Origin: a bacterium | Lineage (GTDB): Bacteria; Zhuqueibacterota; Zhuqueibacteria; Residuimicrobiales; Residuimicrobiaceae | DNA: 64,000 bases | Assembly (NCBI GenBank): GCA_035388125.1 | Contig: DAOOPF010000004.1 | Span: forward strand, 540 to 64,539 | Reading direction: 5' to 3' | Shown: positions 38,933-55,143 of the stretch, one piece after another | How positions within the stretch are numbered: position 1 is the stretch's first letter | Layout of the letters: each line of letters begins with the position of its first letter | Translations under genes and position numbers: made by a program | Notes under the pieces: model-generated | Databases searched by the model: none | What the model saw: the letters and a program-made list of their open reading frames with translations, nothing else | What the model was told of the DNA's origin: nothing

Positions 38933-39307
38933 TTAGTGTTTGAGAGTATCGATGCCCAGCGCCGCAGTGACGGCCAGTTGCAGATCTTGCATGCCGAGTG
39001 AATCCACATGGTAATAAAAAACTTGTTCCCGGCGGACCTTGCCCTCGAGGCTGCGCGTATTCTCCTCTGTCCGCACGATAATGCGCATCGAGGGATCACA
39101 TCCCTTGAGGAGCCGGATGGCCTGGTCGATTTTCAGACCATGGGTCCGGGCGTCAAGGACGATGAGGTCGAAATGCTGGCGCTGCACCTGTTCGAGGGCC
39201 TTGACGGCGTCCTCGACCATAAATGTGGCGATTGCATTGGTGCGGAGAAAGTGGTCCAGCTCCTGCGTAATGCTCTTGTGTGGATTTGCGACGATGAGAC
39301 AATTCAT
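38933..39307 (-). CDS. Degenerate receiver (pseudo-receiver) domain protein, first gene of the hydrogenase array
   Basis: 124 aa with a CheY-like layout. The acidic pair is replaced (LIVANPH) and no conserved Lys-Pro is seen, though an Asp is retained in LIVLDARTHG. Confidence 0.6.
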   Translation of the reverse strand: MNCLIVANPHKSITQELDHFLRTNAIATFMVEDAVKALEQVQRQHFDLIVLDARTHGLKIDQAIRLLKGCDPSMRIIVRTEENTRSLEGKVRREQVFYYHVDSLGMQDLQLAVTAALGIDTLKH

Positions 39308-41013: not shown

Positions 41014-41022
41014 GTGGTCAGC

Positions 41023-42072
41023 CTACTCGCTCTTTGCAGCAGCGGGAAAGGTGATCAGGATGGTTTCACCCTCTTCGCGGCGGGGAGTGAAGGCGAGTGT
41101 AGCGTCCAGAAGCCGGAGTAAAAGTACAGCGAGCCGGAGCCGGGCTGCATCGGGATCACTCCCCTCCTGCCGGGCGAGCAGGAGAGCGCGATCGCGCTCG
41201 GACAAGGGTTTGCGGAGGCCGATGCTCAGTCGAGTCCGCGCGGGTGTTCCCGGCACAACCTCAAGGGAGAGCAGGGGATCGGTATGGCCATTCCGGATAA
41301 GGTGATCGAAGAGCAGCTGCAGAGCGAGAATGGCCGGCACGCTGGGCAAGCCGGCCGGCCTCTCCCCTGCTGCGGAGGCAGCGAGGCTCGGCCGTGACCG
41401 GCCATCCGGCTGCATATCGGCCAGCAGCAGGGCGGTCTCCACCAGGGTGCGGAGATCGCGTGAAGAGGCCTGCTGCGCGGTGAGGCCGATGGCCAGTGCC
41501 CGGTCAACCAACTCCCGGAGAAGCGCAAGCTCCTGTTCGCTCTCCTGTCCGGTGCCTGCTCCGGCCCAGGACGGCCCGGAGAGAGCGGCTGTGGCCGTGC
41601 CCAGGGCGAGAAACGGTGTGCAGGCGTCGAAAAAGCGGTTGAGCATCCCCTGCTGGCTGATCAGGTCGCGCTGCGCAGCGTGGAGTTTCCGGGCCTCAAG
41701 GAGATGGTGGATTGACTTGCTGAGTTTTTCCGGCGGAAAGGGCTTGATGATATAGTCATGGGCGCCCTCACTCATGCAGCGGACCGCATCCTCGATGCTG
41801 GCGAAAGCGGTCATCATGATTACATCCATTTCCGGGCGGCAGATGCGGGTCCGGCTGAGCAGGGTGATGCCGTCCATACCGGGCATACGAATATCGAAAA
41901 TACCGACGTCCAGCTCTTCGAATTTGCACAGCTGCAGCGCCCTGTCGCCGTTTTCGGCCGTGAAGACGCGGAATCCCTCCATTTCAAGCCATTGGCGAAG
42001 GGAATCGCGAATGATGGCCTCATCATCGACGATAAGAAGGGTGCCTGGTGCCCGCTGAGACATCTCATTCAC
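41023..42072 (-). CDS. Response regulator with canonical receiver and an uncharacterised Ala/Leu/Arg-rich C-terminal domain
   Basis: 349 aa. LLIVDDE, IFDIRMPGMDG, YIIKPF. The roughly 200-aa C-terminus has no motif I recognise. Confidence 0.6.
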   Translation of the reverse strand: MNEMSQRAPGTLLIVDDEAIIRDSLRQWLEMEGFRVFTAENGDRALQLCKFEELDVGIFDIRMPGMDGITLLSRTRICRPEMDVIMMTAFASIEDAVRCMSEGAHDYIIKPFPPEKLSKSIHHLLEARKLHAAQRDLISQQGMLNRFFDACTPFLALGTATAALSGPSWAGAGTGQESEQELALLRELVDRALAIGLTAQQASSRDLRTLVETALLLADMQPDGRSRPSLAASAAGERPAGLPSVPAILALQLLFDHLIRNGHTDPLLSLEVVPGTPARTRLSIGLRKPLSERDRALLLARQEGSDPDAARLRLAVLLLRLLDATLAFTPRREEGETILITFPAAAKSE

Positions 42073-43770: not shown

Positions 43771-45480
43771 CTACTCCCCTGTCAGACCGGTGATGCGGTA
43801 ATTGAATTCGTAGGCGAGACTTCGACTCCAGGTTTCGTCGAAGAGGGTTTTATAGCGGGTGCCGTCTTCCGGCCCCACGGGTTTGCCGTACGAGAAAAAC
43901 CAGTTGATGATCGGGCTGCCGGTGAAGCCGAGGGCCATCCAGTAGCGGCCGGGGGGCAGCAGCAGTTCGTCCGCGCTGCAGTCAAAATCGACCCAGTCAT
44001 ATCCGGGCGAATATTTGATCTCCTCGAGGGCGAGATACTTGCTGGTGGCGATATACTCACCGGGTTTGCCCGAGCCGTCATCGCGGAGAATTTCGAGCCA
44101 GAGCTGTCCCGAACCGCCGAATTTGTGCAGGGCGAGGCCTATTTGTGTGAGCTTGAGGGGTTTTTCGAGGATGAAGGTCTGGGCGTACTGATTGCCCTGG
44201 GTGGTGACATATTCGGCGGTTTCGACCATAAAATTCTTGCGCATCTCCATTTCACCGCTCTCTGCCAGGCGTGCGGGGCCGCGCGCGGAGAGGAAATCGG
44301 TATTCTGGGGGAATTCCGTGTTGCCCTGGCTGAAGGGCTGGCTGTAGGCGATACGGCGCATGATCTTTTGTTCGGTGAGCTTGGGCTTGGGTGCCGGCGG
44401 CAGTGCTGACCTTACCGCCACCGGGGTGAAGCCGGCCTCGACGGGCGGAAAGAAGAGCAGTTTTTGCGGACCATGATTCTGTTTTTCCGCACGCAGGTTG
44501 ACACGATCCGAAGCGAGAACGTACTGGATAGTCTCTTCGAACTGGGGGCTGCCCTCGGCGCCCTGGGACTGGGACCAGCGGATAAGACCGTCGTTGCAAG
44601 TCTCCTCGTTATCGAGGCCGATCTCGACGCGGATGAAGCGGTTGCTGACGTAGAGGGCGGTCTGCTGGGGATCGAAGGGGACCCAGCCCAGGTCGGAGAA
44701 CCAGACCTCGATCCAGGAGTGGCGTCCCTGGGCCATGCGCAGGGTGAGGGTGCCATTGGTCAATTCGACGTCGTAGGGTTCCTTGAGGGTGACGCCGTTG
44801 ACAATGCGGCAGGGGATGCCGACGGCGCGCATCAGGGCGGCGCTCAGATGGGAATAGTTCTGGCAGTTGCCCTTGCCGGTGCGCAGTGAGTAGAGGGCGT
44901 CATAGCTGGGCGGGGCCAGGACGTAGCGCAGATTGTCGACGACATAGGTGAGGATGCGTTTGACGGCGTCATATTCGGTCTTGCTGCCGGCGGTCAGCCG
45001 GGAGGCCAGACTGGCGATCTCTTCATTGGCGGCCGGCGCCTGCTCGGTTGATTTCAGGTAGACCTCCTCACCGCGGCCGATCTGGCTGAGGGGAAAGGGG
45101 GCATTGGTGCGCAGTGGTTTCAGCTCCGTGCTGTTGCCCGCTTTGAAGCGCAAGGTCGACTGAACCATGGACTGGGGCTTGTTCCAGATGGCGCGCACGA
45201 TCCGGTTGCCGCGTTCGTCCACTTTTTCATCCTGGCTGGAGGGCGGAACCGAGAAATCGAGGCGGAAGGCACTGATGGACTGCCGGTAGGTGGGCGAAGA
45301 GAAACTTTCCGGCAGAACGTAGCTTAAAACCAGCTTCTGGGTGCCCGGGGCGGGTGCGACTCGCTGTACCATTTCGTAGGTGATCTCGGAATACTGTCCG
45401 CCATTGATCAAATAATCCTCCGCCAGACCGGTGGCGATCCAGCCGAAAAGCAGGCCGATTGCAGCGACGTATCTTCTCAT
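43771..45480 (-). CDS. Secreted transglutaminase-like domain protein
   Basis: 569 aa. Signal peptide. Transglutaminase core GKGNCQNYSHLSAALMRAVGIPCRIVNG...HSWIEVW. Confidence 0.75.
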   Translation of the reverse strand: MRRYVAAIGLLFGWIATGLAEDYLINGGQYSEITYEMVQRVAPAPGTQKLVLSYVLPESFSSPTYRQSISAFRLDFSVPPSSQDEKVDERGNRIVRAIWNKPQSMVQSTLRFKAGNSTELKPLRTNAPFPLSQIGRGEEVYLKSTEQAPAANEEIASLASRLTAGSKTEYDAVKRILTYVVDNLRYVLAPPSYDALYSLRTGKGNCQNYSHLSAALMRAVGIPCRIVNGVTLKEPYDVELTNGTLTLRMAQGRHSWIEVWFSDLGWVPFDPQQTALYVSNRFIRVEIGLDNEETCNDGLIRWSQSQGAEGSPQFEETIQYVLASDRVNLRAEKQNHGPQKLLFFPPVEAGFTPVAVRSALPPAPKPKLTEQKIMRRIAYSQPFSQGNTEFPQNTDFLSARGPARLAESGEMEMRKNFMVETAEYVTTQGNQYAQTFILEKPLKLTQIGLALHKFGGSGQLWLEILRDDGSGKPGEYIATSKYLALEEIKYSPGYDWVDFDCSADELLLPPGRYWMALGFTGSPIINWFFSYGKPVGPEDGTRYKTLFDETWSRSLAYEFNYRITGLTGE

Positions 45481-45582: not shown

Positions 45583-45611
45583 AATATAGGAATAAGCACT
45601 TATTTTGTCAA
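45583..45611 (-). promoter_or_regulatory. Sigma-70-type promoter for the minus-strand array starting with the transglutaminase-like gene
   Basis: Minus strand TTGACA-aaataagtgcttattcc(17)-TATATT. Confidence 0.6.
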
Positions 45612-45887
45612 CAGTAATTAACGGAAGAAAGGGGTTGAATTGCACGCCGCAACCTGTTCAGGAAATCTACAATCCAAAGGGAGTCAAACTATCGATCTTG
45701 TTGCTATATTAAGCAGTTATTTATAGCTAACTATACTATATTTAGCGCAATTTAGTATAATTGCTTTGCATTATGTTGAATATTTAATCAACTGCTATGC
45801 CACACTGTTCATTATGTCTTCATAATTATCTAGCTTTCGTTATTGATATTCAGTGACTTAACCCTCCATCTACTATCCGGTGCATTT

Positions 45888-45903
45888 TGGCACACAAGTT
45901 GCA
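45888..45903 (+). promoter_or_regulatory. Sigma-54 promoter (perfect consensus)
   Basis: TGGCAC-acaag-TTGCA. Preceded by an AT-rich region with inverted repeats (GCAATT-N6-AATTGC at 45747-45764; GCTATA-N13-TATAGC at 45703-45727). Confidence 0.75.
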
Positions 45904-46072
45904 AAGACCGAGCGTCCCGCAGCCATGGGCACTGCCCTGTGCTTGTGGCACCGCCGCGAGGGATAGCCCTCGTCGCCGGCGGAAAAGATGCGGGCTGGAG
46001 TGCTCCCCTTATATTCACAGGATCAGCCCGAGCGCTCCTGAAATCATAACTCATTCAACCGAGGAACCCGTT

Positions 46073-46162
46073 ATGGCCGTACTGCTTCTGCTCTCGCTGG
46101 CGCTGGCTTTCATTCTGACGGATTATGTGGTCCAGCTGCGCCAGGCCAAAAAGAAATCTTAG
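46073..46162 (+). CDS. Candidate 29-aa single-pass membrane peptide
   Basis: GAGGA 7 nt upstream of the ATG. MAVLLLLSLALAFILTDYVVQLRQAKKKS, a hydrophobic helix with a basic tail. Ends 34 nt before the next gene. Confidence 0.4.
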   Translation: MAVLLLLSLALAFILTDYVVQLRQAKKKS

Positions 46163-46196
46163 AACGCTCTGCAGATAACCCAACAGGAGGATGCGG

Positions 46197-46937
46197 ATGA
46201 AGGCCGCAATTCTAACGGATTTAACCAAATGTGTGGGGTGCGAAGCCTGTGCCCTGGCGTGCAAAGAGATCAACGACCTGCCCCGGGATTCAGCCAACCA
46301 CATGCTGACCGCCTACACCTGGAGTTCGATGGAGCACCGCAACGGTGTGAACATCCGGCGGCAATGCATGCACTGCGAAGAGCCCGCCTGCGCCTCTGCG
46401 TGCCCGGTGGGAGCGCTCACCAAGACGCCCGAGGGCGCCGTGATCTATGATGGCCACAAATGTATTGGCTGCCGCTACTGCATGATCGCCTGCCCCTTCG
46501 GCATTCCCAAATACCAGTGGGACAAGCCGATCCCGGTCATTCAAAAGTGCATTTTCTGCTATGAAAAAGCTCTCAAGATCGGTGAGCAGCCCGCCTGTAC
46601 GGCGGCATGCCCGACCGGTGCGACAATTTTCGGCGATCGTGAGGAGTTGATCGCCGAGGCCCGGCGGCGCATCGCCGAGAGTCCGGCAAAATATCAGCCC
46701 CACATCTATGGTTTGAAAGAGGCGGGCGGCACCTCGGTGCTCTATCTCTCCGCCCTCCCCTTTGCTGAACTGGGATTCCCCGCCAATATCATCGAGGAGT
46801 CCTATCCCAATCTGACCTGGAAAGTGCTCAACAAGATCCCCGGCATCGTGACGACCGGTACGGCATTTCTGGCCGGCTTGTGGTGGATTGTGAACAGGAG
46901 AATCAAGCTGCAGGAAAAGCCTGACGAAACGGTCTAG
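46197..46937 (+). CDS. HybA/NrfC/DsrO-like 4x[4Fe-4S] ferredoxin-type subunit with C-terminal membrane anchor
   Basis: Start at the second ATG (AGGAGG 6 nt upstream). CVGCEACALAC, CMHCEEPACASACP, CIGCRYCMIACP, CIFC...CTAACP. C-terminal helix IVTTGTAFLAGLWWIV. No obvious Tat (RR) signal. Confidence 0.8.
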   Translation: MKAAILTDLTKCVGCEACALACKEINDLPRDSANHMLTAYTWSSMEHRNGVNIRRQCMHCEEPACASACPVGALTKTPEGAVIYDGHKCIGCRYCMIACPFGIPKYQWDKPIPVIQKCIFCYEKALKIGEQPACTAACPTGATIFGDREELIAEARRRIAESPAKYQPHIYGLKEAGGTSVLYLSALPFAELGFPANIIEESYPNLTWKVLNKIPGIVTTGTAFLAGLWWIVNRRIKLQEKPDETV

Positions 46938-46994
46938 AACGGCCTCCTGAAGGCCCGGTCTCTTACAAAAAATGCTCACCCTGTTGAGGAACCT

Positions 46995-48551
46995 ATGAAA
47001 TTTAAACTTCCCAAACCGAGTTTCTGGCTCGTCACCCTGGCCGTGATCTGGGCTGCGGGCCTCTTTTCTGTCATCTATCGATTTTATAACGGATTGGGTG
47101 CCGCCACCAATCTCTCGGATGCCTACCCCTGGGGAATCTGGATCGGTTTTGACATTCTGATCGGGGTCGCGCTTGCTGCGGGCGGATTTGCCGTCTGCGC
47201 GACCATCTACATTTTCAATCTCAAGGAGTACCGGCCGATCGGCCGTCCCACTGTCCTGACCGCCTTTTTGGGCTATGTTCTGGTGATCGTGGCTCTGCTC
47301 ATCGATCTCGGCAAGCCCTATAACGTCTGGCATGTCATCACGATGTGGAATCACCATTCCGTCATGTTCGAGGTGGGCTGGTGCGTCATGCTTTACACCA
47401 CCGTCCTCTTTCTCGAATTTCTGCCGGCCTTCTTTGAGAGGTTCCGCATGGTGTTCTGGCAGGATCTCTTCCATCGCATCCTGATCCCGCTGGTCATAGC
47501 CGGCGTCGTCCTCTCGACCCTGCACCAGTCCTCTCTGGGCTCGCTCTATCTGATCGTCCCGAGCAAGCTGCATCCCATCTGGTATTCTGGGATGCTGCCG
47601 GTCTTTTTCTTCATCAGTGCGCTTGCGGGCGGCCTGGCGATGGTCATCTTTGAATCCTATCTGAGTGCGCGCGCTTTTGGCAAGGGGATCGAACAGCGTT
47701 TATTAGCGAATATCAGCCGTGTGATTGGCGTCGTTCTCATGATCTACCTGGTGCTGCGGCTGCAGAATATGATCGAGCGCGGATCGATCAAATATGCTTT
47801 CGATGGCTCCAGAGAGAGCTTCTTTTTCCTGATCGAGATCATCCTCGGCTACATCACGCCCATGATTCTCTTCTTCAATGCGAAGGTCCGTGCCAGCAAG
47901 GCCGGGCTCTTTTTCGCCGCGGTATTAACGCTTTTCGGCCTGGTCATGAATCGCCTGAATGTTGCAATCACGGGCATGGCGCGTTCCGCTGGCGTTGACT
48001 ATCTGCCCAGCTGGATGGAAGTTGCGATAACCCTCTCCATCATTGCCGCCGGACTGGTCCTGTTCCGGCTGGCAGCCAAATATCTGCCCGTCTTTCCGCG
48101 CGAGGAAAAGCTCGGTGACCACCAGCCGCCTCTGGTTGAGGCCGGCCGCAAAGGCAAGCTGGTCATGGGCCTGCTTGCCGGACTGCTGGTATTTCTCCTT
48201 GCCGGCTTCGGTTACTCCCTGGCCACGCAAAAGCCCAATCAGCCGGCTGCAGTGCCGGAAGCCGCCCGGGCCATCGCCGCCGAAACCCTCAACTTTCCCG
48301 CCCCGATCACTTTTACGCCGTCGGAAGACAGTCCAGGCCAGGTCACTTTCAACCACGAATCGCATGTGGATACCAGCGAGCCGAACTGCTCGAGCTGTCA
48401 CGCCGGACTTTTTTCGATTCGCGCCAGCAAAGCGGGAGCCGTCAGCAAGAGCCCTGCGATCGGTCACGATCAGTGCGGCACCTGTCACAATGGTGAAAAA
48501 GCATTCAACTATGAAGAGAGCTGCGATGGCTGTCACATGAGTTCGGAATAA
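46995..48551 (+). CDS. NrfD/PsrC-family integral membrane (quinone-interacting) subunit fused to a C-terminal triheme cytochrome c7-type domain
   Basis: 518 aa, with about 10-11 hydrophobic helices. C-terminal about 80 aa (nt 48312-48551) carries VTFNHESH and three CxxCH motifs (CSSCH, CGTCH, CDGCH). Confidence 0.75.
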   Translation: MKFKLPKPSFWLVTLAVIWAAGLFSVIYRFYNGLGAATNLSDAYPWGIWIGFDILIGVALAAGGFAVCATIYIFNLKEYRPIGRPTVLTAFLGYVLVIVALLIDLGKPYNVWHVITMWNHHSVMFEVGWCVMLYTTVLFLEFLPAFFERFRMVFWQDLFHRILIPLVIAGVVLSTLHQSSLGSLYLIVPSKLHPIWYSGMLPVFFFISALAGGLAMVIFESYLSARAFGKGIEQRLLANISRVIGVVLMIYLVLRLQNMIERGSIKYAFDGSRESFFFLIEIILGYITPMILFFNAKVRASKAGLFFAAVLTLFGLVMNRLNVAITGMARSAGVDYLPSWMEVAITLSIIAAGLVLFRLAAKYLPVFPREEKLGDHQPPLVEAGRKGKLVMGLLAGLLVFLLAGFGYSLATQKPNQPAAVPEAARAIAAETLNFPAPITFTPSEDSPGQVTFNHESHVDTSEPNCSSCHAGLFSIRASKAGAVSKSPAIGHDQCGTCHNGEKAFNYEESCDGCHMSSE

Positions 48552-48609
48552 GGGGCGAGGCAGAGCAGTTCCTGCCTGGACCCTTCGATGCTCTCGTGAC
48601 GCGGTCAAA

Positions 48610-49416
48610 ATGATGGAAAAAATCATCCCCAAATATTCCGGCCAGGCCAACCAGGCCTGGCCGGAGGGCGAAGCCGCCTGTGTCTGGATGCAGGCGGGTC
48701 TGGTTGCTTTCAAGCTGTGCGATCGCGCCTTTGCATGCGCCGGCTGCCCTTTCGATCAACTGATGCGCAGCGGCAGAGCTCATCCTGCCGGGGAAGGGCG
48801 GATTCTGGAAGGCTCCAACCAGCAACATTCTCTTCCGACCGATGCGGAAATCAAGGATCCCCTCCTTCCTTCTCCTCATTTTGATGCCGCCACCTGGTAT
48901 GGAGCCGGCTTTTGGTATATGCGCCCGCGGGGCGGAAAAAAATTTGAAATCGGCCTGAACGAGAACGGGACCGTTTTTCTGCCGCCCATACGGGAAGTCG
49001 TCCTGCCCCGCCGGGGAGCCATCCTCACGACCTCGGAACCGACCATGTGGCTCATTGCCAGTGAAGGTACGCTGGGTTTGACTGCGCCCTGCGACGGTGT
49101 GGTGCGCGCCGTCAATCCCGGAGTGCTGGAGGAACTGGCGCAGAAAATGGAGATGCCGGTTCAGTCCTTTTTCATGGAGATCAGCGTCACCTCCAGCCGC
49201 AGTGCAGCCAGCGGAAAACTGAGGGCCGAGAAAGCGTCGGCCTTTCTGCGCTCGCAATACCTCGAACTTCAGCAAGCCCTCACCGAGACGCTTGATGCTG
49301 AACAACCGGATCAGGAAACAATACGCGGGAAAGATCCTCTTCTTCCCGGCACGCTCGCCGGACTGCTGGGCAGCAAGCGCTACTTCAGCACCGTGGCACC
49401 CTTCTATGCGCGGTGA
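48610..49416 (+). CDS. Hypothetical protein with N-terminal Cys cluster and a GcvH-like (lipoyl-fold) domain lacking the lipoyl-lysine
   Basis: 268 aa. CVWMQAGLVAFKLCDRAFACAGCP. The segment FWYMRP..KFEIGL...VVLP..GAIL...PTMWLIASEGTLGLTAPCDGVVRAVN parallels GcvH by eye, with SEG in place of SVK. Confidence 0.4.
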   Translation: MMEKIIPKYSGQANQAWPEGEAACVWMQAGLVAFKLCDRAFACAGCPFDQLMRSGRAHPAGEGRILEGSNQQHSLPTDAEIKDPLLPSPHFDAATWYGAGFWYMRPRGGKKFEIGLNENGTVFLPPIREVVLPRRGAILTTSEPTMWLIASEGTLGLTAPCDGVVRAVNPGVLEELAQKMEMPVQSFFMEISVTSSRSAASGKLRAEKASAFLRSQYLELQQALTETLDAEQPDQETIRGKDPLLPGTLAGLLGSKRYFSTVAPFYAR

Positions 49417-49614
49417 CTGTGCTCTTTTGAGCACCTGACCCGGACCGCCCACCCCACCCGACCATCCCACCTCTTTGTGAATTAATTCAACATCATTTGT
49501 TGTATTTTGCTTTATATTGGCGAGATTATTTACGATTCCGGTTGTGGTATTCGGAATAATTCTCTATTTTTATCTGCAAATATCATCTGATCAGCTCACC
49601 CTTTCCCTGCCCAT

Positions 49615-51285
49615 ATGTTGAAAAAAGCATTCCAGTCCCTCAGTGTCAGAATTTTCATCCTGATGATGGCCATCGCGACCTGCGGTTTCGGGCTTTATGC
49701 GCACCGCTCTGTGCAGACCCACAGCCGGCAGCTGCTTGAAAGCACATCTGTCAACGCCGGCCGGGTGAGTGACATTATCAAGGGGTCGATGCGGTACGGC
49801 ATGCTGATCAACCGCAAGGAAGATATTCATCAGATCATCAGCACGCTCGCGGCCGATTCCGGCATCGCCGCCATTCGTGTTTACGACAAGCAAGGCAGAA
49901 TCGTCTCCTCTTCCCGGCGTGAGGAGATCGGCCGCAGCGTCGATCCGGCTGCAGAAGCGTGCTCCGCTTGCCATGCTGCGGGGAAGGAGCCAGCCGTCAT
50001 CCCGGCCGCAGACGGTCAGCGTCTTTTGCGTGACGACGCCGGCCGCCGCATTCTGGGGATGGTCAATCCCATTGCCAACGAACCCGACTGCTCCAACGCG
50101 GACTGCCACGCCCACAGTGCCGGGGAGAAAATACTGGGGGTTCTGGATGTGCAGTGGTCTCTGGCAGGGGTCGATGCGCAGCTGCGCGCGGACCGCCGGC
50201 AGCTGATTTTCTTCGGCATCCTGCTGATTCTGGCGAGCGGCCTCTCCGCCGGCTGGTTCATCGACCGGTTTGTCCGCCGCCGCGTCGGCGCTCTGATCAA
50301 GGGGACGCACGAGATCGCCTCCGGCAACCTCTCCTATCGTATTGAGGCCGCCAGGAATGATGAACTGGGCCAGCTCGCCGCGGCTTTCAACCAGATGAAC
50401 GCTGATCTGGATGCAGCCCGGCGTGAACTCACTGACTGGTCTCTCCATCTGGAAGATAAGGTCGAGAAGAAAAGCCGTGAACTGTCCGAGGCTGAATCGC
50501 ACCTGGTGCAAATGGAACGGCTGGCCTCTCTTGGTCATCTCTCCGCCACCGTCGCCCATGAAATCAACAATCCGCTCGCCGGCGCACTGAACTACTCCTT
50601 CCTCGCCCTGCGTTTGCTGCAGGATGAGTCGCTGCCTCCTGCCGCCAGGCAGCGGTTGCAGGAATATCTGACGATCATCAAAAACGAGATCGGCCGTTCG
50701 GGAGATATTATCAACAACATGCTCCTCTTCGCGCGCCAATCCGGGGGCCATTTCGCAGAAGACCATCTGCACGAGCTGATCACATCGAGTCTGAAGCTGG
50801 TCCATCATCACATGGAGCTGAAGGGAATCGCTCACTGCGATGAACTGCAGCTCGCGGATGATCGTTTGATCTGTGATGCAGGGCAGATCCGCCAGGCTCT
50901 GGTGGCCCTTTTCGTCAATGCCATCGAGGCGATGGAGAGCGGCGGCACCTTGACTGTCCGCACCAGCGCAAAAAGCAATCCGGAGTCCATCATGATCGAG
51001 GTTGCGGATACCGGCGGAGGCATTCCAGACGATGTCCTGCCTCATATCTTTGATCCCTTTTTCTCGACCAAAAAGGAGGGCAAAGGGGTTGGTCTGGGGC
51101 TGGCTGTGACCTACGGCATCATCCAGCGCCATCAGGGTATCATCGCGGTTGACGCCGGATCATCGGGGGGCACAGTTTTTAGCATCACTCTGCCTCGTCA
51201 CCCTTTGCCGGATAAAGGGGCACAGGGAGGAAAAGAGATCGACCCGAAGGCGCCAGCGGCGGATCCGAGCCAGGTTATTCAGTAA
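49615..51285 (+). CDS. Sensor histidine kinase (2 TM, periplasmic domain with heme-c-type motifs, HAMP, HisKA, HATPase)
   Basis: 556 aa. CSACH at nt 49960-49974 and CSNADCH at nt 50086-50106 between the two TM segments. HAMP, H-box VAHEINNPL, then NAIEAM, DTGGGI, GVGLGL. Confidence 0.85.
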   Translation: MLKKAFQSLSVRIFILMMAIATCGFGLYAHRSVQTHSRQLLESTSVNAGRVSDIIKGSMRYGMLINRKEDIHQIISTLAADSGIAAIRVYDKQGRIVSSSRREEIGRSVDPAAEACSACHAAGKEPAVIPAADGQRLLRDDAGRRILGMVNPIANEPDCSNADCHAHSAGEKILGVLDVQWSLAGVDAQLRADRRQLIFFGILLILASGLSAGWFIDRFVRRRVGALIKGTHEIASGNLSYRIEAARNDELGQLAAAFNQMNADLDAARRELTDWSLHLEDKVEKKSRELSEAESHLVQMERLASLGHLSATVAHEINNPLAGALNYSFLALRLLQDESLPPAARQRLQEYLTIIKNEIGRSGDIINNMLLFARQSGGHFAEDHLHELITSSLKLVHHHMELKGIAHCDELQLADDRLICDAGQIRQALVALFVNAIEAMESGGTLTVRTSAKSNPESIMIEVADTGGGIPDDVLPHIFDPFFSTKKEGKGVGLGLAVTYGIIQRHQGIIAVDAGSSGGTVFSITLPRHPLPDKGAQGGKEIDPKAPAADPSQVIQ

Positions 51286-51319
51286 GAGCTGACACTATTT
51301 TACAGTAAACCGAGGAATT

Positions 51320-52675
51320 ATGAATTCAGTATCCATTCTGATCGTCGACGATGAAGAGTCCGTACGGCTCTCACTTTTCAACTGGTTCCGGGAGGAGGGC
51401 TACGAGGTCGGTATCGCCAAAGATGCCTTTGAGGCTCTGGCAGCGCTTGACAAGTCGCCATGGGATATCATGCTGCTCGATGTCCGCATGCCGGGGATGA
51501 GCGGGATAGAACTGCAGCGCCGGGTGCGTGAGCTTCACAAGGAGATGATCATCATCATCATGACCGCCTTCGCTTCGGTGGATACAGCAGTACAGAGCCT
51601 CAAGGAGGGCGCTTATGACTATGTCGTCAAGCCCTTCAATCCGGAGGAACTCAGTCATATGGTGCGAAACGCCGCCGAACGGATCTCACTGCGGGAGGAA
51701 AACAGTGAGCTGCGGCAGAGCATGCAGCAGCTGTCCGGACCTGAAGAGATCATCGGCGATAGTCCGCAGATCAGGCGGGTAATGGAACTGGTGCAGACCG
51801 TCGCCCAATCGGATGCGACGGTGGTCATCCGTGGTGAAAGTGGAACCGGCAAGGAGCTGATCGCGCGCGCTATTCATGATCATTCCGAGCGCCGTTACCA
51901 CCCCATCATCGCGGTCAACTGCGGCGCCCTGTCTGAGAGCCTTCTGGAGAGCGAGCTTTTCGGCCATGAAAAAGGGGCTTTCACAGGAGCGCAGAGCCGG
52001 CGGAAGGGCAAATTTGAGCTCGCTGACAAGGGCACGCTTTTTCTCGACGAGATCGGCAATATCAGCCAGAAGATGCAGATGGAACTGCTGCGGGTGCTCG
52101 AAAGCCGGCAGTTCACCCGGGTGGGCGGCAGCCAGAACATCCACGTGGATATCCGTTTGATCTGCGCAACCAATAAAAATCTTGAGCAGGCTGTTGCCGA
52201 TGGTTCGTTCCGCGAGGATTTGTATTACCGCATCAATGTCTTCACGATCGTCCTCCCTCCTCTGCGCGAGCGCAAATCAGATATCCCGGGGCTGGTGGAC
52301 CATTTTATTCGCAAGTACAGCCGGAGCATGAACAAGGATATCCGCGAGATTTCACCGCAGGCGCTTGACCTGCTCATCCGGCACCAATGGCCGGGCAATA
52401 TCCGGGAGCTTGAGAACGCCATCGAGAGGGCGATGGTTGTAGGCAAAGCGCCCGCCATCATGCCCCACGATCTGCCCTTCCAGCTTGCCGAGGAGAGCGC
52501 CGAACGGCATGAAGGATCGGATTCCCTTGCCGAGATGGAGAGGCATCATATTGCGCTCATGCTTGGCAAGGCAAACTGGAACATCAGCAAGGCCGCCAGA
52601 ATGCTGGGGATCGACAGGGTGACACTTTACAACAAGATCAGGCGATACCAGCTCAAGCGCAAGAAACGCAGCTAG
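51320..52675 (+). CDS. Sigma-54-dependent response regulator (NtrC/ZraR/AtoC family)
   Basis: 451 aa. ILIVDDE, LLDVRMPGMSG, GESGTGKE, GAFTGA, C-terminal HTH (NISKAARMLGIDRVTLYNKI). Confidence 0.9.
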   Translation: MNSVSILIVDDEESVRLSLFNWFREEGYEVGIAKDAFEALAALDKSPWDIMLLDVRMPGMSGIELQRRVRELHKEMIIIIMTAFASVDTAVQSLKEGAYDYVVKPFNPEELSHMVRNAAERISLREENSELRQSMQQLSGPEEIIGDSPQIRRVMELVQTVAQSDATVVIRGESGTGKELIARAIHDHSERRYHPIIAVNCGALSESLLESELFGHEKGAFTGAQSRRKGKFELADKGTLFLDEIGNISQKMQMELLRVLESRQFTRVGGSQNIHVDIRLICATNKNLEQAVADGSFREDLYYRINVFTIVLPPLRERKSDIPGLVDHFIRKYSRSMNKDIREISPQALDLLIRHQWPGNIRELENAIERAMVVGKAPAIMPHDLPFQLAEESAERHEGSDSLAEMERHHIALMLGKANWNISKAARMLGIDRVTLYNKIRRYQLKRKKRS

Positions 52676-52695
52676 GCAGGATCGGGCGGCAGAGG

Positions 52696-52739
52696 TAAAA
52701 AAAATAGAGCCGGACAAGTTTGTCCGGCTCTATTTTTTT
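52696..52739. terminator. Bidirectional rho-independent terminator between convergent genes
   Basis: A8 run, 14-bp stem ATAGAGCCGGACAA / TTGTCCGGCTCTAT, then T7 run. Confidence 0.85.
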
Positions 52740-52782
52740 ATGGTGGTGGAGGGCGGCCTCCATCCCTGACTTGAGCGGCTGC

Positions 52783-55143
52783 CTACTCCGCGCTCTCCAT
52801 GCGCTTGCGCAGCTCGATGGACTGGGAGTAGAACTCTTGCAGCGACATCTTTTTAAGATAAACCATGCCATGAGCGCCGCGCAGCCGGGGATGCGTGCTC
52901 TCGTTGAAATAGCTCCTGCCGAGGCAGAGTTTCATCCACTGATACTGTTCAACCAGCACCTTACGCGAGAGCTGGGAGAAGGGGCCGTCGAACTCGTAGC
53001 TGGGGAACGACGCGGTGCGCTGGGAGCCAAAGCAGGCATCGAACACCGATTCAAGCACGGAGAGGGAATTAAGCGAAACCGGCACCATGGTGGTCGCCTC
53101 AGAGGGATGAAAACGGAACCAGACGTTCCGGTATCCCCATACCTGGATGTCGTGTTTGCCGCTTTCCTTCTCATAGATCTGCAAGGCCTGGGCCAGGGTC
53201 TGCAGCACCTTGTAATGGGTATCGGGTCCGCTCCCCTCCGGATCGAAGGCGAGGGTGACCACGGAGGGCTGGACCTGCTTGAGCAGATTCAGCACCGGCA
53301 CCACATCGCGGTCTTCCTGCGGATTCTCGGTAAAGATCTCACCCTTGTAAAAGCCGAGGCGGAGGTGGTGGACGTGGCTCGAATTAAAGCCGAGGTGGCC
53401 CCATTTGAGGTCCGATTCCCACTCGCGGATCATTCCCTTGAGCTGCTGGATATAGGGCAGGTCTTTTTTGCCGGGATATTGGGTCTTGAAGTAGAGTATG
53501 AGCTCGGCGACGCGATTTTTAAGCTGGCCGGTGCTGCTCTCTTCGAAGATATGGATCATATTGCGTAAAAGCCGGCGGGCCTCGCCCTCATCCCGCATGT
53601 ACTCGCTGTGGGCGGCCACCCCGTCCAGATACTGGTACATGTCCCGGTTGCGTCCCAGTTCATTGGCAGGGTCGAAATAGCCTTCACTGAGCAGGCGCTG
53701 GAATTCCTGGGTGTCAATGAAGCGCTGCAGGTTTTCCAGCAGATCGCGGGCATAGGTATTGGTGACGGCGTTGAAGCCGCTGGTCAGGTAAGTGAAGTGA
53801 TGCGAATTTTTGGCGCTGCGCACCAGGTGGATGATATAAGGCCAGTAGCCCAGGATGATGTCATCGTGGTGGGGTGCGGTATGGAGAAAAGTATGGCCCT
53901 CAAGCGGCGCCAGCCCCTCCTCAATCTTGCTTTTAAGTCTGGCGGAGACATAGTCACCAAGCTGGACGGGCGTCATACCGCTGTTTTTCAGGACCAGGGC
54001 CGATGAGCGGATCGAGGCGTAATCTTGCTCGTCGAGTTCCCAGAGGTGCTTTCTCCGCTCCCTGGCCAGGTCAACAACGATATGTTCGACCTCGTGTTCG
54101 GGGATGGGGTCCATCCTGGTGACATTTTCATAGCGCCTTTCCGTGAGCAGGATGGCGGCGCCATGCGTGAGGTAAAAGCGGGCGTTTGGAAGTTTATGGA
54201 GAGCGGAAGCGGGGTATTGATTGTCCGCTTTCTGCTCGACCGCGTCCTTGATGACACGTGCTTTGGCCTCGCCGGCGGCGATGATGATCGCCACAGAGCG
54301 GGGATTATAGGTGATGGTATCCAGACCGATCGTGATCACCAGCCGGTTGCGGGCGACCTCGATGCCGCCGAGGTCCGATGCGGCAGCGGCCTGGGTTTCG
54401 TAGTTGGTAGCGGTCAGACGGGTGGTCGAAAAGTGGTCTGAACCCCGGACGTTGAAGCCGATGTGGCCGTCCGGTCCGATGCCGCCAAGAAAAAAGCCGA
54501 TGCCGCCCATGGCGCGGATTTGGGCTTCGTATTCGGTGCAGTACTGATCCACGCGGGTGATAATTTTCTGCTGCATCTTTTCGAGGCGGGTCTTGGGCTG
54601 ACGGGTGCGAAGAGAGAGATCGACGATTTCGTCCGGAAAGGCCTCCGCTGGTGTCTTGCTTTCGGGCACACCGAGACCCCAGGCGTTGATGAGCAGGGCT
54701 TTTTTCGGATCGAGTCCGAAGCCGCGGATATAGAAGGTATTGATATAGTGGTAAAAGCTGTTGACCTGGGTGGGATTGATCGGGTAGAATTCATCGATCT
54801 GCACGAAGCGCAAGCCGGACATCTGCGGTTTTTTGCCGGCATCGACGCCGTTGGCTTCCAGATCCTTGCGGATGTCGGGGGTTTCCCAGTCGCGCAGGTA
54901 GCGGGTCACCCATTTGATAAAGTGCTCGGGGGTTTTTCCGGTGGGCAGGGAGATGATGCCCTCGGGGTTTTCCTGCACCCATTCGAGGAAACGAAGCGCA
55001 GTCAGCTTGCCGAGCATGGGAAAGTTCTCCACCTCGACGATGGCGATTTTCTCCTGCGGCGCATAGATGAACTTGCGGCCGCTCCGCTCCACGGCCAGCA
55101 TTTCGACCTTAGAAGATCCGGTTTTTGTCTGTTTCTTGTCCAT
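52783..55143 (-). CDS. Long-form glucosamine-6-phosphate deaminase/isomerase-like protein (NagB-like N-terminal domain + LmbE/PIG-L-like C-terminal region)
   Basis: 786 aa. SLPTGKTP and GIGPDGHIGFN (NagB family). Later HTAPHHDDIILGY resembles the PIG-L AHPDD motif. Confidence 0.6.
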   Translation of the reverse strand: MDKKQTKTGSSKVEMLAVERSGRKFIYAPQEKIAIVEVENFPMLGKLTALRFLEWVQENPEGIISLPTGKTPEHFIKWVTRYLRDWETPDIRKDLEANGVDAGKKPQMSGLRFVQIDEFYPINPTQVNSFYHYINTFYIRGFGLDPKKALLINAWGLGVPESKTPAEAFPDEIVDLSLRTRQPKTRLEKMQQKIITRVDQYCTEYEAQIRAMGGIGFFLGGIGPDGHIGFNVRGSDHFSTTRLTATNYETQAAAASDLGGIEVARNRLVITIGLDTITYNPRSVAIIIAAGEAKARVIKDAVEQKADNQYPASALHKLPNARFYLTHGAAILLTERRYENVTRMDPIPEHEVEHIVVDLARERRKHLWELDEQDYASIRSSALVLKNSGMTPVQLGDYVSARLKSKIEEGLAPLEGHTFLHTAPHHDDIILGYWPYIIHLVRSAKNSHHFTYLTSGFNAVTNTYARDLLENLQRFIDTQEFQRLLSEGYFDPANELGRNRDMYQYLDGVAAHSEYMRDEGEARRLLRNMIHIFEESSTGQLKNRVAELILYFKTQYPGKKDLPYIQQLKGMIREWESDLKWGHLGFNSSHVHHLRLGFYKGEIFTENPQEDRDVVPVLNLLKQVQPSVVTLAFDPEGSGPDTHYKVLQTLAQALQIYEKESGKHDIQVWGYRNVWFRFHPSEATTMVPVSLNSLSVLESVFDACFGSQRTASFPSYEFDGPFSQLSRKVLVEQYQWMKLCLGRSYFNESTHPRLRGAHGMVYLKKMSLQEFYSQSIELRKRMESAE

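What the first reader, a model, noticed from the sequence alone, without database searches (positions are those of the whole stretch)
45888..52675. Sigma-54-driven, self-contained membrane redox module: peptide, HybA-like FeS protein, NrfD::triheme-c7 fusion, GcvH-like protein, heme-motif kinase and activator
- Six co-directional genes follow a perfect sigma-54 promoter.
- The FeS subunit has four ferredoxin-type Cys motifs and a C-terminal anchor, but no visible Tat signal.
- The NrfD-family membrane subunit carries an extra helix and a C-terminal domain with three CxxCH motifs plus the VTFNHESH signature of c7-type triheme cytochromes. In the related complexes I know (Cbc4, Qrc, Hmc, Dsr-type), the cytochrome is a separate polypeptide.
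- Next is a cytoplasmic-looking protein with a Cys cluster and a GcvH-like fold lacking the lipoyl-lysine.
- The operon ends with its own sensor kinase, whose periplasmic domain bears CSACH and CSNADCH motifs, and a sigma-54 activator. The module therefore likely senses periplasmic redox state and autoregulates.
- No catalytic subunit (hydrogenase, formate dehydrogenase, molybdopterin enzyme) is present, so the physiological donor and acceptor are open.
Basis: partly seen in the sequence, partly recalled or inferred. Interest (0 to 1): 0.65.

Follow-up and report, generated by a model that had tools for sequence, protein, structure and literature searches.

The report
Regulated quinone module with fused cytochrome
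This is a real, sigma-54/two-component-controlled membrane electron-transfer operon whose quinone-binding subunit carries a fused three-haem cytochrome. It is one form of an uncharacterised gene cassette found in more than ten bacterial phyla, which always includes an iron-sulfur subunit with no export signal and usually non-lipoylated GcvH-like proteins.

Summary

- **Fusion:** the NrfD::c7 fusion is not a frameshift. All 120 best database relatives (about 520 aa) carry both Pfam domains. The three CxxCH motifs plus the FxHxxH histidines are invariant in 30 homologues down to 49% identity.
- **Cassette:** in 80 genome loci from Acidobacteriota, Ignavibacteriota, Bacteroidota, KSB1, Myxococcota and other phyla, the same core recurs. 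It is a four-cluster FeS protein, a HybB-type NrfD protein, a kinase with a haem-c sensor domain and a sigma-54 activator.
- **Accessories:** the c7 fusion occurs in about 20 of the 80 loci. GcvH-fold proteins without the lipoyl lysine occur in 69 of 80. An archaemetzincin gene follows the activator in 60 of 80 but is absent from this window.
- **Peptide:** the 29-aa peptide is the surviving membrane helix of a membrane-anchored GcvH-like paralogue and is under purifying selection.
- **Mechanism:** most likely a Qrc/Cbc4-like menaquinol:periplasmic-cytochrome oxidoreductase (direction open), induced through the haem-c sensor kinase.
- **Unresolved:** the FeS subunit lacks a Tat signal throughout the family, yet its topology predicts a periplasmic location.

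Verdict: a new variant of a known kind, moderately interesting.

The parts
45729..45762 (.). Imperfect inverted repeat (14-nt arms, 6-nt spacer) 126-159 bp upstream of the sigma-54 site. It is a candidate activator-binding site only.
   Evidence: pair I4, 86% complementary. It is not conserved in L005, and no shared palindrome was found across 32 loci.
45888..45903 (+). Sigma-54 (-24/-12) promoter TGGCACacaagTTGCA.
   Evidence: It is the only perfect match in 64 kb. L005 has TGGCATgcaagTTGCA upstream of the same peptide gene, and similar sites are enriched upstream of homologous cassettes.
45915..46072 (+). GC-rich 5' leader between the promoter and the first ORF, predicted to be structured.
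   Evidence: MFE -67.5 kcal/mol, z = -3.69 against 200 shuffles. No Rfam family matches.
46073..46162 (+). 29-aa single-helix membrane peptide (MAVLLLLSLALAFILTDYVVQLRQAKKKS). It is homologous to the N-terminal anchor of the membrane-anchored GcvH-like paralogue of related cassettes.
   Evidence: An HMM of 76 paralogue N-termini finds this segment alone among 1,612 window segments (E 3.3e-5; next best E 3.8). Against L005 there are 7 synonymous and 3 non-synonymous changes, while the flanking non-coding DNA is unalignable. A gene is called here on public contigs.
46197..46937 (+). HybA/HmcB-like iron-sulfur subunit: four [4Fe-4S] motifs, a C-terminal TM anchor and no signal peptide.
   Evidence: Pfam Fer4_11 E 1.4e-20. 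NCBIfam HmcB 241 bits and HybA 229 bits, both below their cut-offs. 38% identical to E. coli HybA starting at HybA residue 39. 16 Cys are invariant in 70/70. The anchor has more K+R on its C-terminal side in 66/69 orthologues.
46995..48143 (+). NrfD-family (HybB/HmcC-type) 10-helix quinone-interacting core, with its cytoplasmic loop leading to helix 11.
   Evidence: Pfam NrfD E 1.2e-22. HmcC 327 bits and HybB 317 bits. 34% identical to E. coli HybB. HybB D58/Y99/S129 correspond to D53/Y94/S122, which are invariant in A1. Hydropathy.
48144..48230 (+). Extra 11th transmembrane helix (residues 384-412) that carries the C-terminus to the periplasm.
   Evidence: The preceding loop is rich in K/R and the following segment is not.
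48297..48551 (+). c7-type trihaem cytochrome domain (residues 435-518). CxxCH motifs lie at 48387-48401, 48474-48488 and 48522-48536; FNHESH covers residues 452-457.
   Evidence: Pfam Cytochrome_C7 E 5e-11. TIGR04257 57 bits, above its cut-off of 40. Best PDB matches are the c7-type domains of a multi-domain Geobacter cytochrome, 3OV0, E 4.9e-24. Motifs are invariant in 30 homologues.
48610..49416 (+). Soluble 268-aa protein with an N-terminal invariant 4-Cys motif (C24, C37, C43, C46), a GcvH-fold domain lacking the lipoyl lysine, and a C-terminal helical extension.
   Evidence: 1,036 representative clusters; 114/123 hit PF01597.
49408..49614 (+). Weak terminator-like hairpin followed by a 198-bp AT-rich gap before the kinase gene. 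This may be an internal promoter or an attenuation point.
   Evidence: Not tested further.
49615..51285 (+). Sensor histidine kinase: TM1, periplasmic haem-c Cache-type sensor (residues 32-193, nt 49708-50193; CSACH at 49960-49974, CSNADCH at 50089-50109), TM2, HAMP, HisKA, HATPase.
   Evidence: Pfam. Motif conservation. M63 and H167 are invariant or nearly so. The profile of 20 sensors hits PDB 3B42 and 3B47 at E 3.7e-6 and 5.7e-4, with Cx4CH aligned to their CxxCH. The isolated sensor scores 28.4 bits on PF21563, above its cut-off of 27.
51320..52675 (+). NtrC-family response regulator and sigma-54 activator (receiver, AAA+ domain with GAFTGA, Fis-type HTH).
   Evidence: Sigma54_activat E 3.5e-74, Response_reg, HTH_8. 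AtoC, NtrC and ZraR models score highly but below their cut-offs.

Best explanation
**What it is.** The operon encodes a membrane module of the NrfC/NrfD kind with no catalytic subunit. Its closest relatives are E. coli HybA/HybB and Desulfovibrio HmcB/HmcC.

**How it most likely works.**

1. The 10-helix NrfD-type subunit sits in the canonical orientation, with both termini in the cytoplasm. It binds menaquinone or menaquinol near the periplasmic face, and protons travel through a conserved cytoplasm-facing pathway (D53, Y94, S122).
2. The four-cluster FeS protein docks on the periplasmic face and wires the quinone site to the trihaem c7 domain.
3. The c7 domain is held at the periplasmic surface by an 11th helix and a linker of about 35 residues. 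It exchanges electrons with soluble periplasmic carriers.
4. The complex therefore works as a menaquinol:cytochrome c oxidoreductase. Run in reverse, like Qrc, it would be a periplasmic-electron:menaquinone oxidoreductase.

**Regulation.** A kinase whose periplasmic Cache-type domain carries one or two covalently bound haems detects the periplasmic redox state or a haem ligand such as NO. It phosphorylates the NtrC-type activator, which drives the sigma-54 promoter in front of the operon.

**Accessory proteins.** The cytoplasmic GcvH-fold protein (4-Cys type) and the 29-aa helix are conserved accessory subunits of unknown role. The helix is a remnant of the membrane-anchored GcvH-like paralogue.

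**Shown versus inferred.** Shown: gene content, domain identities, conservation, predicted topology and conserved synteny. Inferred: cofactor loading, direction of electron flow, the signal sensed, transcription from the sigma-54 site and the side of the membrane on which the FeS protein sits.
For: - **Domain identities:**
- **Fusion:** real and conserved. A split form has a separate trihaem gene next to the FeS gene in L037, so the c7 is a genuine partner of the module.
- **Functional residues:** the HybB residues D58/Y99/S129 are invariant here. Their role in quinone reduction and proton uptake is taken from PMC13059093.
- **Topology:** 11 helices with positive-inside loops. In 10-helix NrfD proteins the termini are on the N-side, and the quinone site and FeS partner are on the P-side (PMC8076601).
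- **FeS anchor:** homologous to the HybA anchor, with cytoplasmic positive charges in 66/69 orthologues.
- **Cassette conservation:** FeS, NrfD, haem kinase and sigma-54 activator co-occur in 80 loci across many phyla.
- **Sensor:** haem motifs are conserved, and the sensor is homologous to the GSU0935/GSU0582 haem-c sensors.
- **Promoter:** a perfect sigma-54 site, with such sites enriched in relatives.
- **Literature:** papers already read orphan NrfCD modules, with or without multihaem cytochromes, as quinol:cytochrome modules (PMC3534657, PMC9386147; Cbc4 in bioRxiv 10.1101/2025.04.14.648717).
Against: - The FeS subunit has no Tat signal in any of 76 orthologues, and no signal-bearing partner is encoded in any cassette. 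How a folded four-cluster protein would reach the periplasm is therefore unexplained.
- About 60 of 80 cassettes have no cytochrome at all, so cytochrome reduction cannot be the universal function.
- The model gives no role to the strongly conserved cytoplasmic GcvH-fold proteins (69/80 loci) or to the archaemetzincin gene (60/80).
- No conserved activator-binding site was found.
- There are no expression or biochemical data.
Confidence: 0.6

Rival explanations
1. **Redox-sensing device rather than a respiratory enzyme.** The FeS/NrfD pair, with c7 where present, equilibrates with the menaquinone pool and passes electrons to the haems of the kinase's periplasmic domain. The kinase thereby reports quinone-pool redox state, and the sigma-54 activator controls this operon and other targets.
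For: - The kinase and activator are linked to FeS/NrfD in essentially every one of 80 loci across more than ten phyla, and the sensor domain itself is homologous (30-49% identity). This is tighter than usual for respiratory operons.
- Most cassettes have no cytochrome or catalytic partner.
- The kinase haem motifs are conserved.
Against: - Regulator genes beside their target operon are common and need no physical coupling.
- The related cassette L087 uses an OmpR-type regulator and a different kinase.
- An energy-coupled 10-helix NrfD subunit with a conserved proton pathway is elaborate for a sensor.
- No other target promoters are known.
Confidence: 0.15
2. **Cytoplasm-facing FeS subunit.** Because it lacks a Tat signal, the FeS protein stays in the cytoplasm, tail-anchored by its C-terminal helix. 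There it works with the cytoplasmic GcvH-fold and 4-Cys proteins, linking a cytoplasmic redox carrier to the quinone pool, as proposed for SoeABC.
For: - No signal peptide exists anywhere in the family.
- One to three cytoplasmic GcvH-fold proteins are conserved partners, one of them membrane-anchored with its domain predicted to be cytoplasmic.
- There is a precedent for N-side peripheral subunits in SoeABC (PMC8076601).
Against: - The c7 fusion fixes the NrfD core in the canonical orientation, with the FeS-docking and quinone face on the periplasmic side (PMC8076601).
- The anchor's charge distribution predicts a cytoplasmic C-tail in 66/69 orthologues and aligns with the HybA anchor.
- NrfD proteins carry no cofactor to take electrons across the membrane, so a periplasmic c7 would have no partner.
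Confidence: 0.15
3. **Membrane anchor of a hydrogenase or other Tat-exported enzyme encoded elsewhere.** The FeS and NrfD proteins are the HybA/HybB-type anchor that NCBI's name 'Ni/Fe-hydrogenase cytochrome b subunit' implies. The FeS subunit hitch-hikes to the periplasm on that enzyme's Tat signal.
For: - HybA and HybB are among the best-scoring models, at 38% and 34% identity to the E. coli proteins.
- Signal-less FeS subunits such as FdnH, PsrB and QrcC are normally exported with a partner (established knowledge).
- This reading would explain the missing Tat signal.
Against: - Scores are below the HybA and HybB cut-offs (229 against 263; 317 against 450).
- No hydrogenase, formate dehydrogenase or molybdopterin gene occurs in any of 80 cassettes.
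- The only hydrogenase genes in the window are cytoplasmic-type [FeFe] genes on the other strand, 7-13 kb away.
- E. coli HybA has its own Tat signal.
Confidence: 0.1

Closest known systems
E. coli hydrogenase-2 membrane module HybA/HybB
   Same: - Four-cluster FeS protein with a C-terminal TM anchor (38% identity) and a 10-helix NrfD-type subunit (34% identity).
- HybB residues D58, Y99 and S129 are conserved.
   Different: - The FeS protein has no Tat signal.
- There are no hydrogenase genes.
- An extra helix plus a trihaem c7 domain is fused to the membrane subunit.
- The cassette has its own sigma-54 two-component system and GcvH-fold partners.
- Scores are below the NCBIfam cut-offs.
Desulfovibrio HmcABCDEF (HmcB/HmcC) and QrcABCD
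   Same: - A periplasmic cytochrome c, an FeS protein and an NrfD-type subunit are coupled to the menaquinone pool.
- HmcB and HmcC are the top NCBIfam hits (241 and 327 bits).
- Qrc is the functional model for cytochrome c:menaquinone electron transfer with proton uptake from the cytoplasm (PMC6303296, PMC13059093).
   Different: - There is no 16-haem HmcA, no HmcE/F and no QrcB.
- The cytochrome is a trihaem c7 covalently fused to the membrane subunit.
- Scores are far below the cut-offs (420 and 550).
Geobacter sulfurreducens Cbc4 (CbcS/CbcT/CbcU) and 'orphan NrfCD + multihaem cytochrome' clusters of Melioribacter and MBNT15
   Same: - The composition is a membrane-associated c-type cytochrome, a four-[4Fe-4S] protein and an NrfD-like subunit, without a molybdopterin subunit.
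- These clusters are interpreted as quinol:periplasmic-cytochrome oxidoreductases (bioRxiv 10.1101/2025.04.14.648717; PMC3534657; PMC9386147).
   Different: - CbcS is a separate NapC/NirT-type tetrahaem protein, not a fused c7.
- Those papers describe no GcvH-fold partners or dedicated haem-kinase/sigma-54 pair.
Haem-c Cache (sCache_haem) periplasmic sensors: GSU0582, GSU0935, Tll0287 family
   Same: - A periplasmic sensor between two TM helices has a covalent-haem motif at the same position.
- The profile hits 3B42 and 3B47.
- PF21563 matches 18/20 sensors.
   Different: - The homologous motif is Cx4CH instead of CxxCH.
- An additional upstream CxxCH is present in 65/73 orthologues.
- The output is a kinase paired with a sigma-54 activator.
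- PF11845 (Tll0287-like) is matched only weakly, by 3/20 sensors.
Glycine-cleavage H protein and lipoate-binding relatives
   Same: - The fold matches (Foldseek TM about 0.8, E 6e-8).
- Family members match PF01597 (114/123).
   Different: - No lysine occupies the lipoylation position anywhere in the family.
- The proteins carry added modules: an N-terminal 4-Cys motif or an N-terminal TM helix, and a C-terminal helical extension.
- They are encoded with a membrane redox module.

Membership tests
NrfD/PsrC family (PF03916) | Sequence match above the Pfam gathering score | tested here: met
   81.4 bits against a cut-off of 25.8, residues 39-329.
NrfD/PsrC family (PF03916) | 8 core helices (10 in the HybB/ActC/QrcD type), no redox cofactor, and a quinone site beside an FeS partner | tested here: met
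   10 core helices plus 1 extra by hydropathy, and an adjacent four-cluster FeS gene. HybB D58/Y99/S129 equivalents are invariant. Absence of cofactors is not testable here.
HybB, hydrogenase-2 membrane subunit (NF008133) | Score above the equivalog cut-off and linkage to hybOC hydrogenase genes | tested here: not met
   317 bits against a cut-off of 450. No hydrogenase genes occur in 80 cassettes.
HmcC / HmcB (NF045714 / NF045715) | Score above the cut-off and the presence of HmcA, D, E and F | tested here: not met
   327 bits against 550 and 241 bits against 420. No HmcA-, HmcE- or HmcF-like genes are present.
HybA (NF008134) | Twin-arginine signal peptide, four [4Fe-4S] motifs and a C-terminal anchor | tested here: not met
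   The four motifs and the anchor are present. There is no signal, because the alignment starts at HybA residue 39. The score is 229 bits against a cut-off of 263.
Cytochrome c7 / trihaem domain (PF14522, TIGR04257) | Three CxxCH motifs plus the FxHxxH distal histidines in about 70 residues, with a score above the cut-off | tested here: met
   PF14522 scores 42.7 bits against 24.8. TIGR04257 scores 57.2 bits against 40. Motifs are invariant in 30 homologues. The histidine equivalent to PpcA His47 is not conserved in all homologues. Haem attachment itself is not testable here.
Glycine-cleavage H protein (PF01597 / TIGR00527) | Lipoyl-lysine in the conserved hairpin | tested here: not met
   The column holds E, G, D or N and never a conserved K in 123 sequences. 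The window protein itself has no Pfam hit. The fold and family-level homology are met.
NtrC-type sigma-54 enhancer-binding response regulators | Receiver domain, AAA+ sigma-54 interaction domain with GAFTGA, and a Fis-type HTH | tested here: met
   The three Pfam domains are present. GAFTGA and Walker A GESGTGKE are read directly in the translation.
Haem-c Cache sensor (GSU0582/GSU0935 type; PF21563, PF11845) | Periplasmic Cache fold with a strictly conserved CxxCH | tested here: inconclusive
   The isolated sensor scores 28.4 bits on PF21563 against a cut-off of 27. The profile hits 3B42 at E 3.7e-6. However, the aligned motif is Cx4CH, PF11845 is matched only weakly, and no structure model was made.
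Geobacter Cbc4 | NapC/NirT-type tetrahaem CbcS, four-cluster CbcT and NrfD-like CbcU | tested here: not met
   The FeS and NrfD parts are analogous. The cytochrome here is a fused c7 trihaem, not a NapC/NirT tetrahaem (bioRxiv 10.1101/2025.04.14.648717). Direct sequence comparison with GSU0068-0070 was not done.

The most novel reading that the evidence does not exclude
The cassette defines a new, phylogenetically very broad class of regulated membrane redox machines. Its components are a Tat-signal-less four-cluster FeS protein, a HybB-type NrfD subunit, one to three non-lipoylatable GcvH-fold proteins (4-Cys and membrane-anchored), a haem-c kinase, a sigma-54 activator and an archaemetzincin.

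In this reading the cytoplasmic GcvH-fold proteins are functional partners. They could act as a thiol, persulfide or FeS carrier analogous to DsrC or LbpA, or as a gate on the cytoplasmic proton path. The FeS subunit would reach its site by a route not yet described for NrfC-type proteins. The c7 fusion would be one of several periplasmic output adaptors.
Probability: 0.2. Interest if true: 0.75.

Novelty: new variant of a known kind. Interest (0 to 1): 0.55.

Why it matters
NrfC/NrfD modules are the common quinone-coupling unit of many anaerobic respiratory complexes.

- **A naturally simplified form.** Here the cytochrome, linker helix and quinone subunit are one polypeptide. That gives a built-in topology reporter and a minimal three-component system for studying how such modules couple quinone chemistry to periplasmic electron carriers.
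- **An unstudied, widespread cassette.** The comparative result is broader than the original finding. The same FeS-NrfD-haem-kinase-sigma-54 cassette, usually with GcvH-fold proteins and an archaemetzincin, occurs in soil and sediment lineages from more than ten phyla, including Terriglobia, Bryobacteraceae, Ignavibacteriota, Bacteroidota, KSB1 and Myxococcota. I found no functional study of it.
- **Two testable open questions.** One is how a signal-less four-cluster FeS subunit is placed. The other is what a lipoate-free GcvH fold does at a membrane complex. These make it a tractable target in culturable carriers of the cassette.

Tried and rejected
- **Frameshift origin of the fusion:** rejected.
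- **Mis-called start hiding a Tat signal on the FeS protein:** rejected. In-frame stop codons lie 0-12 codons upstream in many loci, and no RR motif is present.
- **Peptide as a chance ORF:** rejected.
- **First structure model of the 268-aa protein:** the 9-sequence alignment gave pLDDT 41 and was unusable. It was repeated with 123 sequences.
- **Word-based protein searches for the 268-aa protein:** these found only 9 relatives. The exhaustive HMM search was needed.
- **Direct PDB sequence search with the 268-aa protein:** no meaningful hit. With the NrfD::c7 protein only the c7 domain matched solved structures, not the NrfD core.
- **Shared palindromic activator site upstream of the sigma-54 sites of 32 loci:** nothing above the shuffled controls.
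- **First sigma-54 scan of loci:** it had an indexing bug and returned nothing. It was corrected.
- **Rfam scan of the operon:** only sub-threshold hits in the convergent-gene gap at 52647-52798.
- **Literature searches** for an NrfD-c7 fusion, or for NrfD together with GcvH: no paper describing either.
- **Archaemetzincin or a full-length membrane-anchored GcvH paralogue in the window:** absent.

Full report
**Observation**

- **Sigma-54 site.** A perfect -24/-12 element (TGGCACacaagTTGCA, 45888-45903) is the only perfect match to TGGCACN5TTGCW on either strand of the 64-kb window.
- **Genes.** Six co-directional ORFs follow it: a 29-aa peptide (46073-46162), an FeS protein (46197-46937), a 518-aa NrfD::c7 protein (46995-48551), a 268-aa protein (48610-49416), a histidine kinase (49615-51285) and a sigma-54 activator (51320-52675).
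- **Independent support.** Four public contigs of the same organism carry identical genes, and an independent gene caller calls all six, including the peptide.
- **Spacing.** Intergenic distances are 34-58 bp, except for a 198-bp AT-rich gap before the kinase. That gap is preceded by a weak terminator-like hairpin.

**The fusion is real and conserved**

- **Database relatives.** All 120 best relatives of the 518-aa protein are about 520 aa long and carry both PF03916 (NrfD) and PF14522 (cytochrome c7). Named sources include Acidobacteriota, Thermoanaerobaculia, KSB1 and Armatimonadota.
- **Invariant motifs.** In 30 homologues spanning 49-87% identity, the three CxxCH motifs (C465/C468/H469, C494/C497/H498, C510/C513/H514) and F452/H454/H457 are invariant.
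- **Closest solved structures.** The c7 part is closest to the c7-type domains of a multi-domain Geobacter cytochrome, PDB 3OV0, at E 4.9e-24. It passes the TIGR04257 domain cut-off.
- **Topology.** Hydropathy gives ten core helices plus an eleventh (residues 384-412). Positively charged loops lie on the side of the N-terminus and of the loop before helix 11. According to the family review PMC8076601, 10-helix NrfD proteins (HybB, ActC, QrcD) have both termini on the cytoplasmic side, with the quinone site and FeS partner on the periplasmic side. The extra helix is therefore exactly what is needed to put a c-type cytochrome in the periplasm, and the fusion acts as a built-in reporter of canonical orientation.
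- **Functional residues.** The core is 34% identical to E. coli HybB. HybB D58, Y99 and S129 align with D53, Y94 and S122, all invariant in the family. PMC13059093, citing Lubek et al. 2019, reports that D58 and Y99 are needed for quinone reduction and proton uptake.
- **Variants.** Longer forms have further cytochrome domains (611-832 aa). A split form has a separate 138-aa trihaem gene next to the FeS gene (L037).

**The FeS subunit**

- **Clusters.** It has four [4Fe-4S] motifs, and all 16 cysteines are invariant in 70 of 70 sequences.
- **Relation to HybA.** It is 38% identical to E. coli HybA, and the C-terminal anchors align. The alignment starts at HybA residue 39, which is after the stretch where HybA's twin-arginine signal lies (established knowledge).
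- **No signal anywhere in the family.** In 76 orthologous loci the protein starts a few residues before the first Cys motif, often with an in-frame stop 0-12 codons upstream.
- **Anchor topology.** The anchor is followed by a conserved WWI-x-N/H-RR motif. It has more K+R on its C-terminal side in 66 of 69 orthologues. This predicts a cytoplasmic C-tail and a periplasmic FeS domain, as in HybA and FdnH.
- **The puzzle.** No protein with a Tat signal is encoded in any of the cassettes. How the subunit is placed is therefore unexplained. I rate a periplasmic location as the more likely. The arguments are the c7 orientation, the anchor charges, and the fact that a periplasmic c7 would otherwise have no redox partner. 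A cytoplasmic location, as proposed for SoeABC (PMC8076601), is not excluded.

**The 268-aa protein and the peptide**

- **Family membership.** The 268-aa protein has no direct Pfam, NCBIfam or PDB sequence match. An exhaustive profile search finds a family of 1,036 representative clusters.
- **GcvH fold.** Of 123 members, 114 match PF01597 (GCV_H). An AlphaFold model built on that alignment (pLDDT 85) matches GcvH structures at E 6e-8 and TM about 0.8.
- **No lipoyl lysine.** The position equivalent to the lipoyl lysine is E, G, D or N and never a conserved K. An N-terminal C-x12-C-x5-C-x2-C motif (with W26) is invariant.
- **Two paralogue types.** Searching the related loci with the family profile shows GcvH-fold genes on the operon strand in 69 of 80 loci, often two or three per locus. 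There is a 4-Cys type like the window's. There is also a more common type of about 223 aa with an N-terminal TM helix (consensus MTVILxLxxFxxFLTIDYxxxRxK), encoded directly upstream of the FeS gene.
- **Origin of the peptide.** The window's 29-aa peptide (MAVLLLLSLALAFILTDYVVQLRQAKKKS) is homologous to that helix. A profile of 76 such N-termini finds it alone among 1,612 six-frame segments of the window, at E 3.3e-5, with the next best at E 3.8.
- **Selection on the peptide.** Against the closest relative (L005) the peptide ORF shows 7 synonymous and 3 non-synonymous differences. The surrounding non-coding DNA cannot be aligned. A similar short form occurs in a Myxococcales locus (L011). The peptide is thus a retained helix of a GcvH-like gene that has lost its soluble domain, and it is probably still a subunit.

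**The regulators**

- **Kinase architecture.** The kinase has two TM helices flanking a 160-residue periplasmic domain with CSACH and CSNADCH motifs.
- **Motif conservation.** In 73 orthologues the Cx4CH motif is present in all and the CxxCH in 65, with a constant spacing of about 43 residues. M63 is invariant and H167 nearly so.
- **Sensor homology.** A profile of 20 sensor domains hits the haem-c sensor domains of Geobacter chemoreceptors (PDB 3B42 at E 3.7e-6; 3B47 at E 5.7e-4). The Cx4CH motif aligns with their CxxCH. The isolated window domain passes the PF21563 cut-off, as do most of 20 relatives. This family was recently reclassified as haem-containing Cache domains, and some members bind NO (PMC12889525).
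- **Activator.** It has a receiver domain, an AAA+ domain with GAFTGA, and a Fis-type HTH.
- **Promoters in relatives.** Sigma-54-type sites (at most 2 mismatches, GG/GC kept) lie within 400 bp upstream of the FeS gene in 15 of 76 loci, against about 3.5 expected. They cluster at -735 to -870, in front of the upstream GcvH-like gene, in 17 more loci, against about 1.2 expected.
- **Activator-binding site.** It is not conserved in L005, and no common palindrome emerged across 32 loci.

**The wider picture**

- **Core cassette.** A scan of one genome per species returned 529 relatives. The best 80 loci come from Terriglobia, Bryobacteraceae, Blastocatellia, Holophagae, Thermoanaerobaculia, Ignavibacteriota, Bacteroidota, KSB1, Latescibacterota, Eisenbacteria, Myxococcota, Methylomirabilota, Eremiobacterota, Armatimonadota, Verrucomicrobiota and others. 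In essentially all of them FeS, NrfD, a homologous haem kinase and a sigma-54 activator are adjacent and co-directional.
- **Cytochromes are optional.** The c7 domain is fused in about 20 loci. About 60 loci have a roughly 390-aa NrfD and, in most, no cytochrome gene.
- **Archaemetzincin.** A Peptidase_M54 gene follows the activator in 60 loci. It is absent from this window.
- **No catalytic subunit.** No hydrogenase, formate dehydrogenase or molybdopterin gene is part of the cassette.
- **This window's version.** It is reduced relative to the common cassette: a peptide replaces the membrane-anchored GcvH paralogue and there is no archaemetzincin. It is also augmented, by the c7 fusion.

**Mechanism**

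- **Best-supported reading (confidence 0.6).** This is an NrfCD-type quinone module that exchanges electrons between the menaquinone pool and periplasmic carriers through the FeS wire and the tethered c7. It is functionally like Qrc, Cbc4 and the 'orphan NrfCD plus multihaem cytochrome' clusters noted in Melioribacter and MBNT15 genomes (PMC3534657, PMC9386147; bioRxiv 10.1101/2025.04.14.648717; PMC6303296). It is induced through a periplasmic haem-c sensor kinase and a sigma-54 activator. The direction of electron flow, the signal sensed and the physiological partners are open.
- **Rivals.** One is a quinone-pool redox sensor that feeds the kinase haems (0.15). Another is a cytoplasm-facing FeS subunit working with the GcvH-fold proteins (0.15). 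The third is an anchor for a Tat-exported enzyme encoded elsewhere, which would explain the missing signal (0.1).
- **What no model explains.** None of these gives a role to the conserved GcvH-fold proteins or the archaemetzincin.

**Novelty and verdict**

The parts all belong to known families. The idea of a catalytic-subunit-less NrfCD module serving cytochromes is already in the literature.

These features appear undescribed; I found no paper on any of them:

- the covalent NrfD::c7 fusion;
- the family-wide absence of a Tat signal on the FeS subunit;
- the conserved association with lipoate-free GcvH-fold proteins in two forms;
- the fixed pairing with a haem-c Cache kinase and a sigma-54 activator.

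I rate it a new variant of a known kind, with interest 0.55.

Noticed in passing
window 32633-39099 (- strand): A cytoplasmic-type [FeFe]-hydrogenase gene cluster. It comprises a 568-aa HydA-like catalytic subunit, a 671-aa NuoF-like subunit and a 220-aa NuoE-like subunit. It also includes a 683-aa protein that fuses an [FeFe]-hydrogenase H-domain to HisKA/HATPase, which is a putative sensory hydrogenase-kinase.
   Followed up: partly
window 39649-42072 (- strand): A second sigma-54 activator (454 aa) and a 349-aa receiver-domain protein lie between the hydrogenase cluster and the operon studied. They are not part of the conserved cassette.
   Followed up: no
window 45583-45611 (- strand): A strong sigma-70-like promoter (TTGACA-17-TATATT, 11/12) serves the divergent transglutaminase-like gene 43771-45480. 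This stretch is conserved in L005, whereas the rest of the intergenic region is not.
   Followed up: partly
window 45915-46075: The GC-rich 5' leader of the operon folds far better than shuffled controls (z = -3.7) and matches no Rfam family. Its sequence is not conserved in L005.
   Followed up: partly
L085 12648-13229; L086 12855-13394; 60 of 80 related loci: An archaemetzincin (Peptidase_M54) gene directly follows the sigma-54 activator in most related cassettes. One checked example (from L006) scores 148 bits on NF033823 against a cut-off of 145. The gene is absent from this window.
   Followed up: partly
L017 (-2454..-919 relative to its NrfD gene); L037 (-1277..-861): In L017 the 4-Cys and membrane-anchored GcvH-like units lie in one 511-aa ORF. 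In L037 (Methylomirabilota) the trihaem cytochrome is a separate 138-aa gene upstream of the FeS gene rather than a fusion.
   Followed up: partly
L087 8001-12899; proteins P0042, P0043, P0110: Variants of 824-832 aa carry additional cytochrome c3/c7 domains on the NrfD subunit. In L087 the cassette is followed by an OmpR-type regulator and a kinase instead of the sigma-54 pair.
   Followed up: no
window 52647-52798: Sub-threshold Rfam hits (AaHKsRNA41 at 30.5 bits against 97; McaS at 25.8 bits against 42) lie in the short gap between the convergent activator gene and the 786-aa gene. This is probably a terminator region and not an sRNA.
   Followed up: no
window 52783-55143 (- strand) and 58093-63942 (- strand): The first is a 786-aa protein with only weak Glucosamine_iso and PIG-L matches. 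The second is a very large SdrD_B / CarboxypepD_reg repeat protein that on public contigs shows a weak Por_Secre_tail match. The latter hints at a type IX secretion organism of the FCB group or a neighbouring lineage.
   Followed up: no
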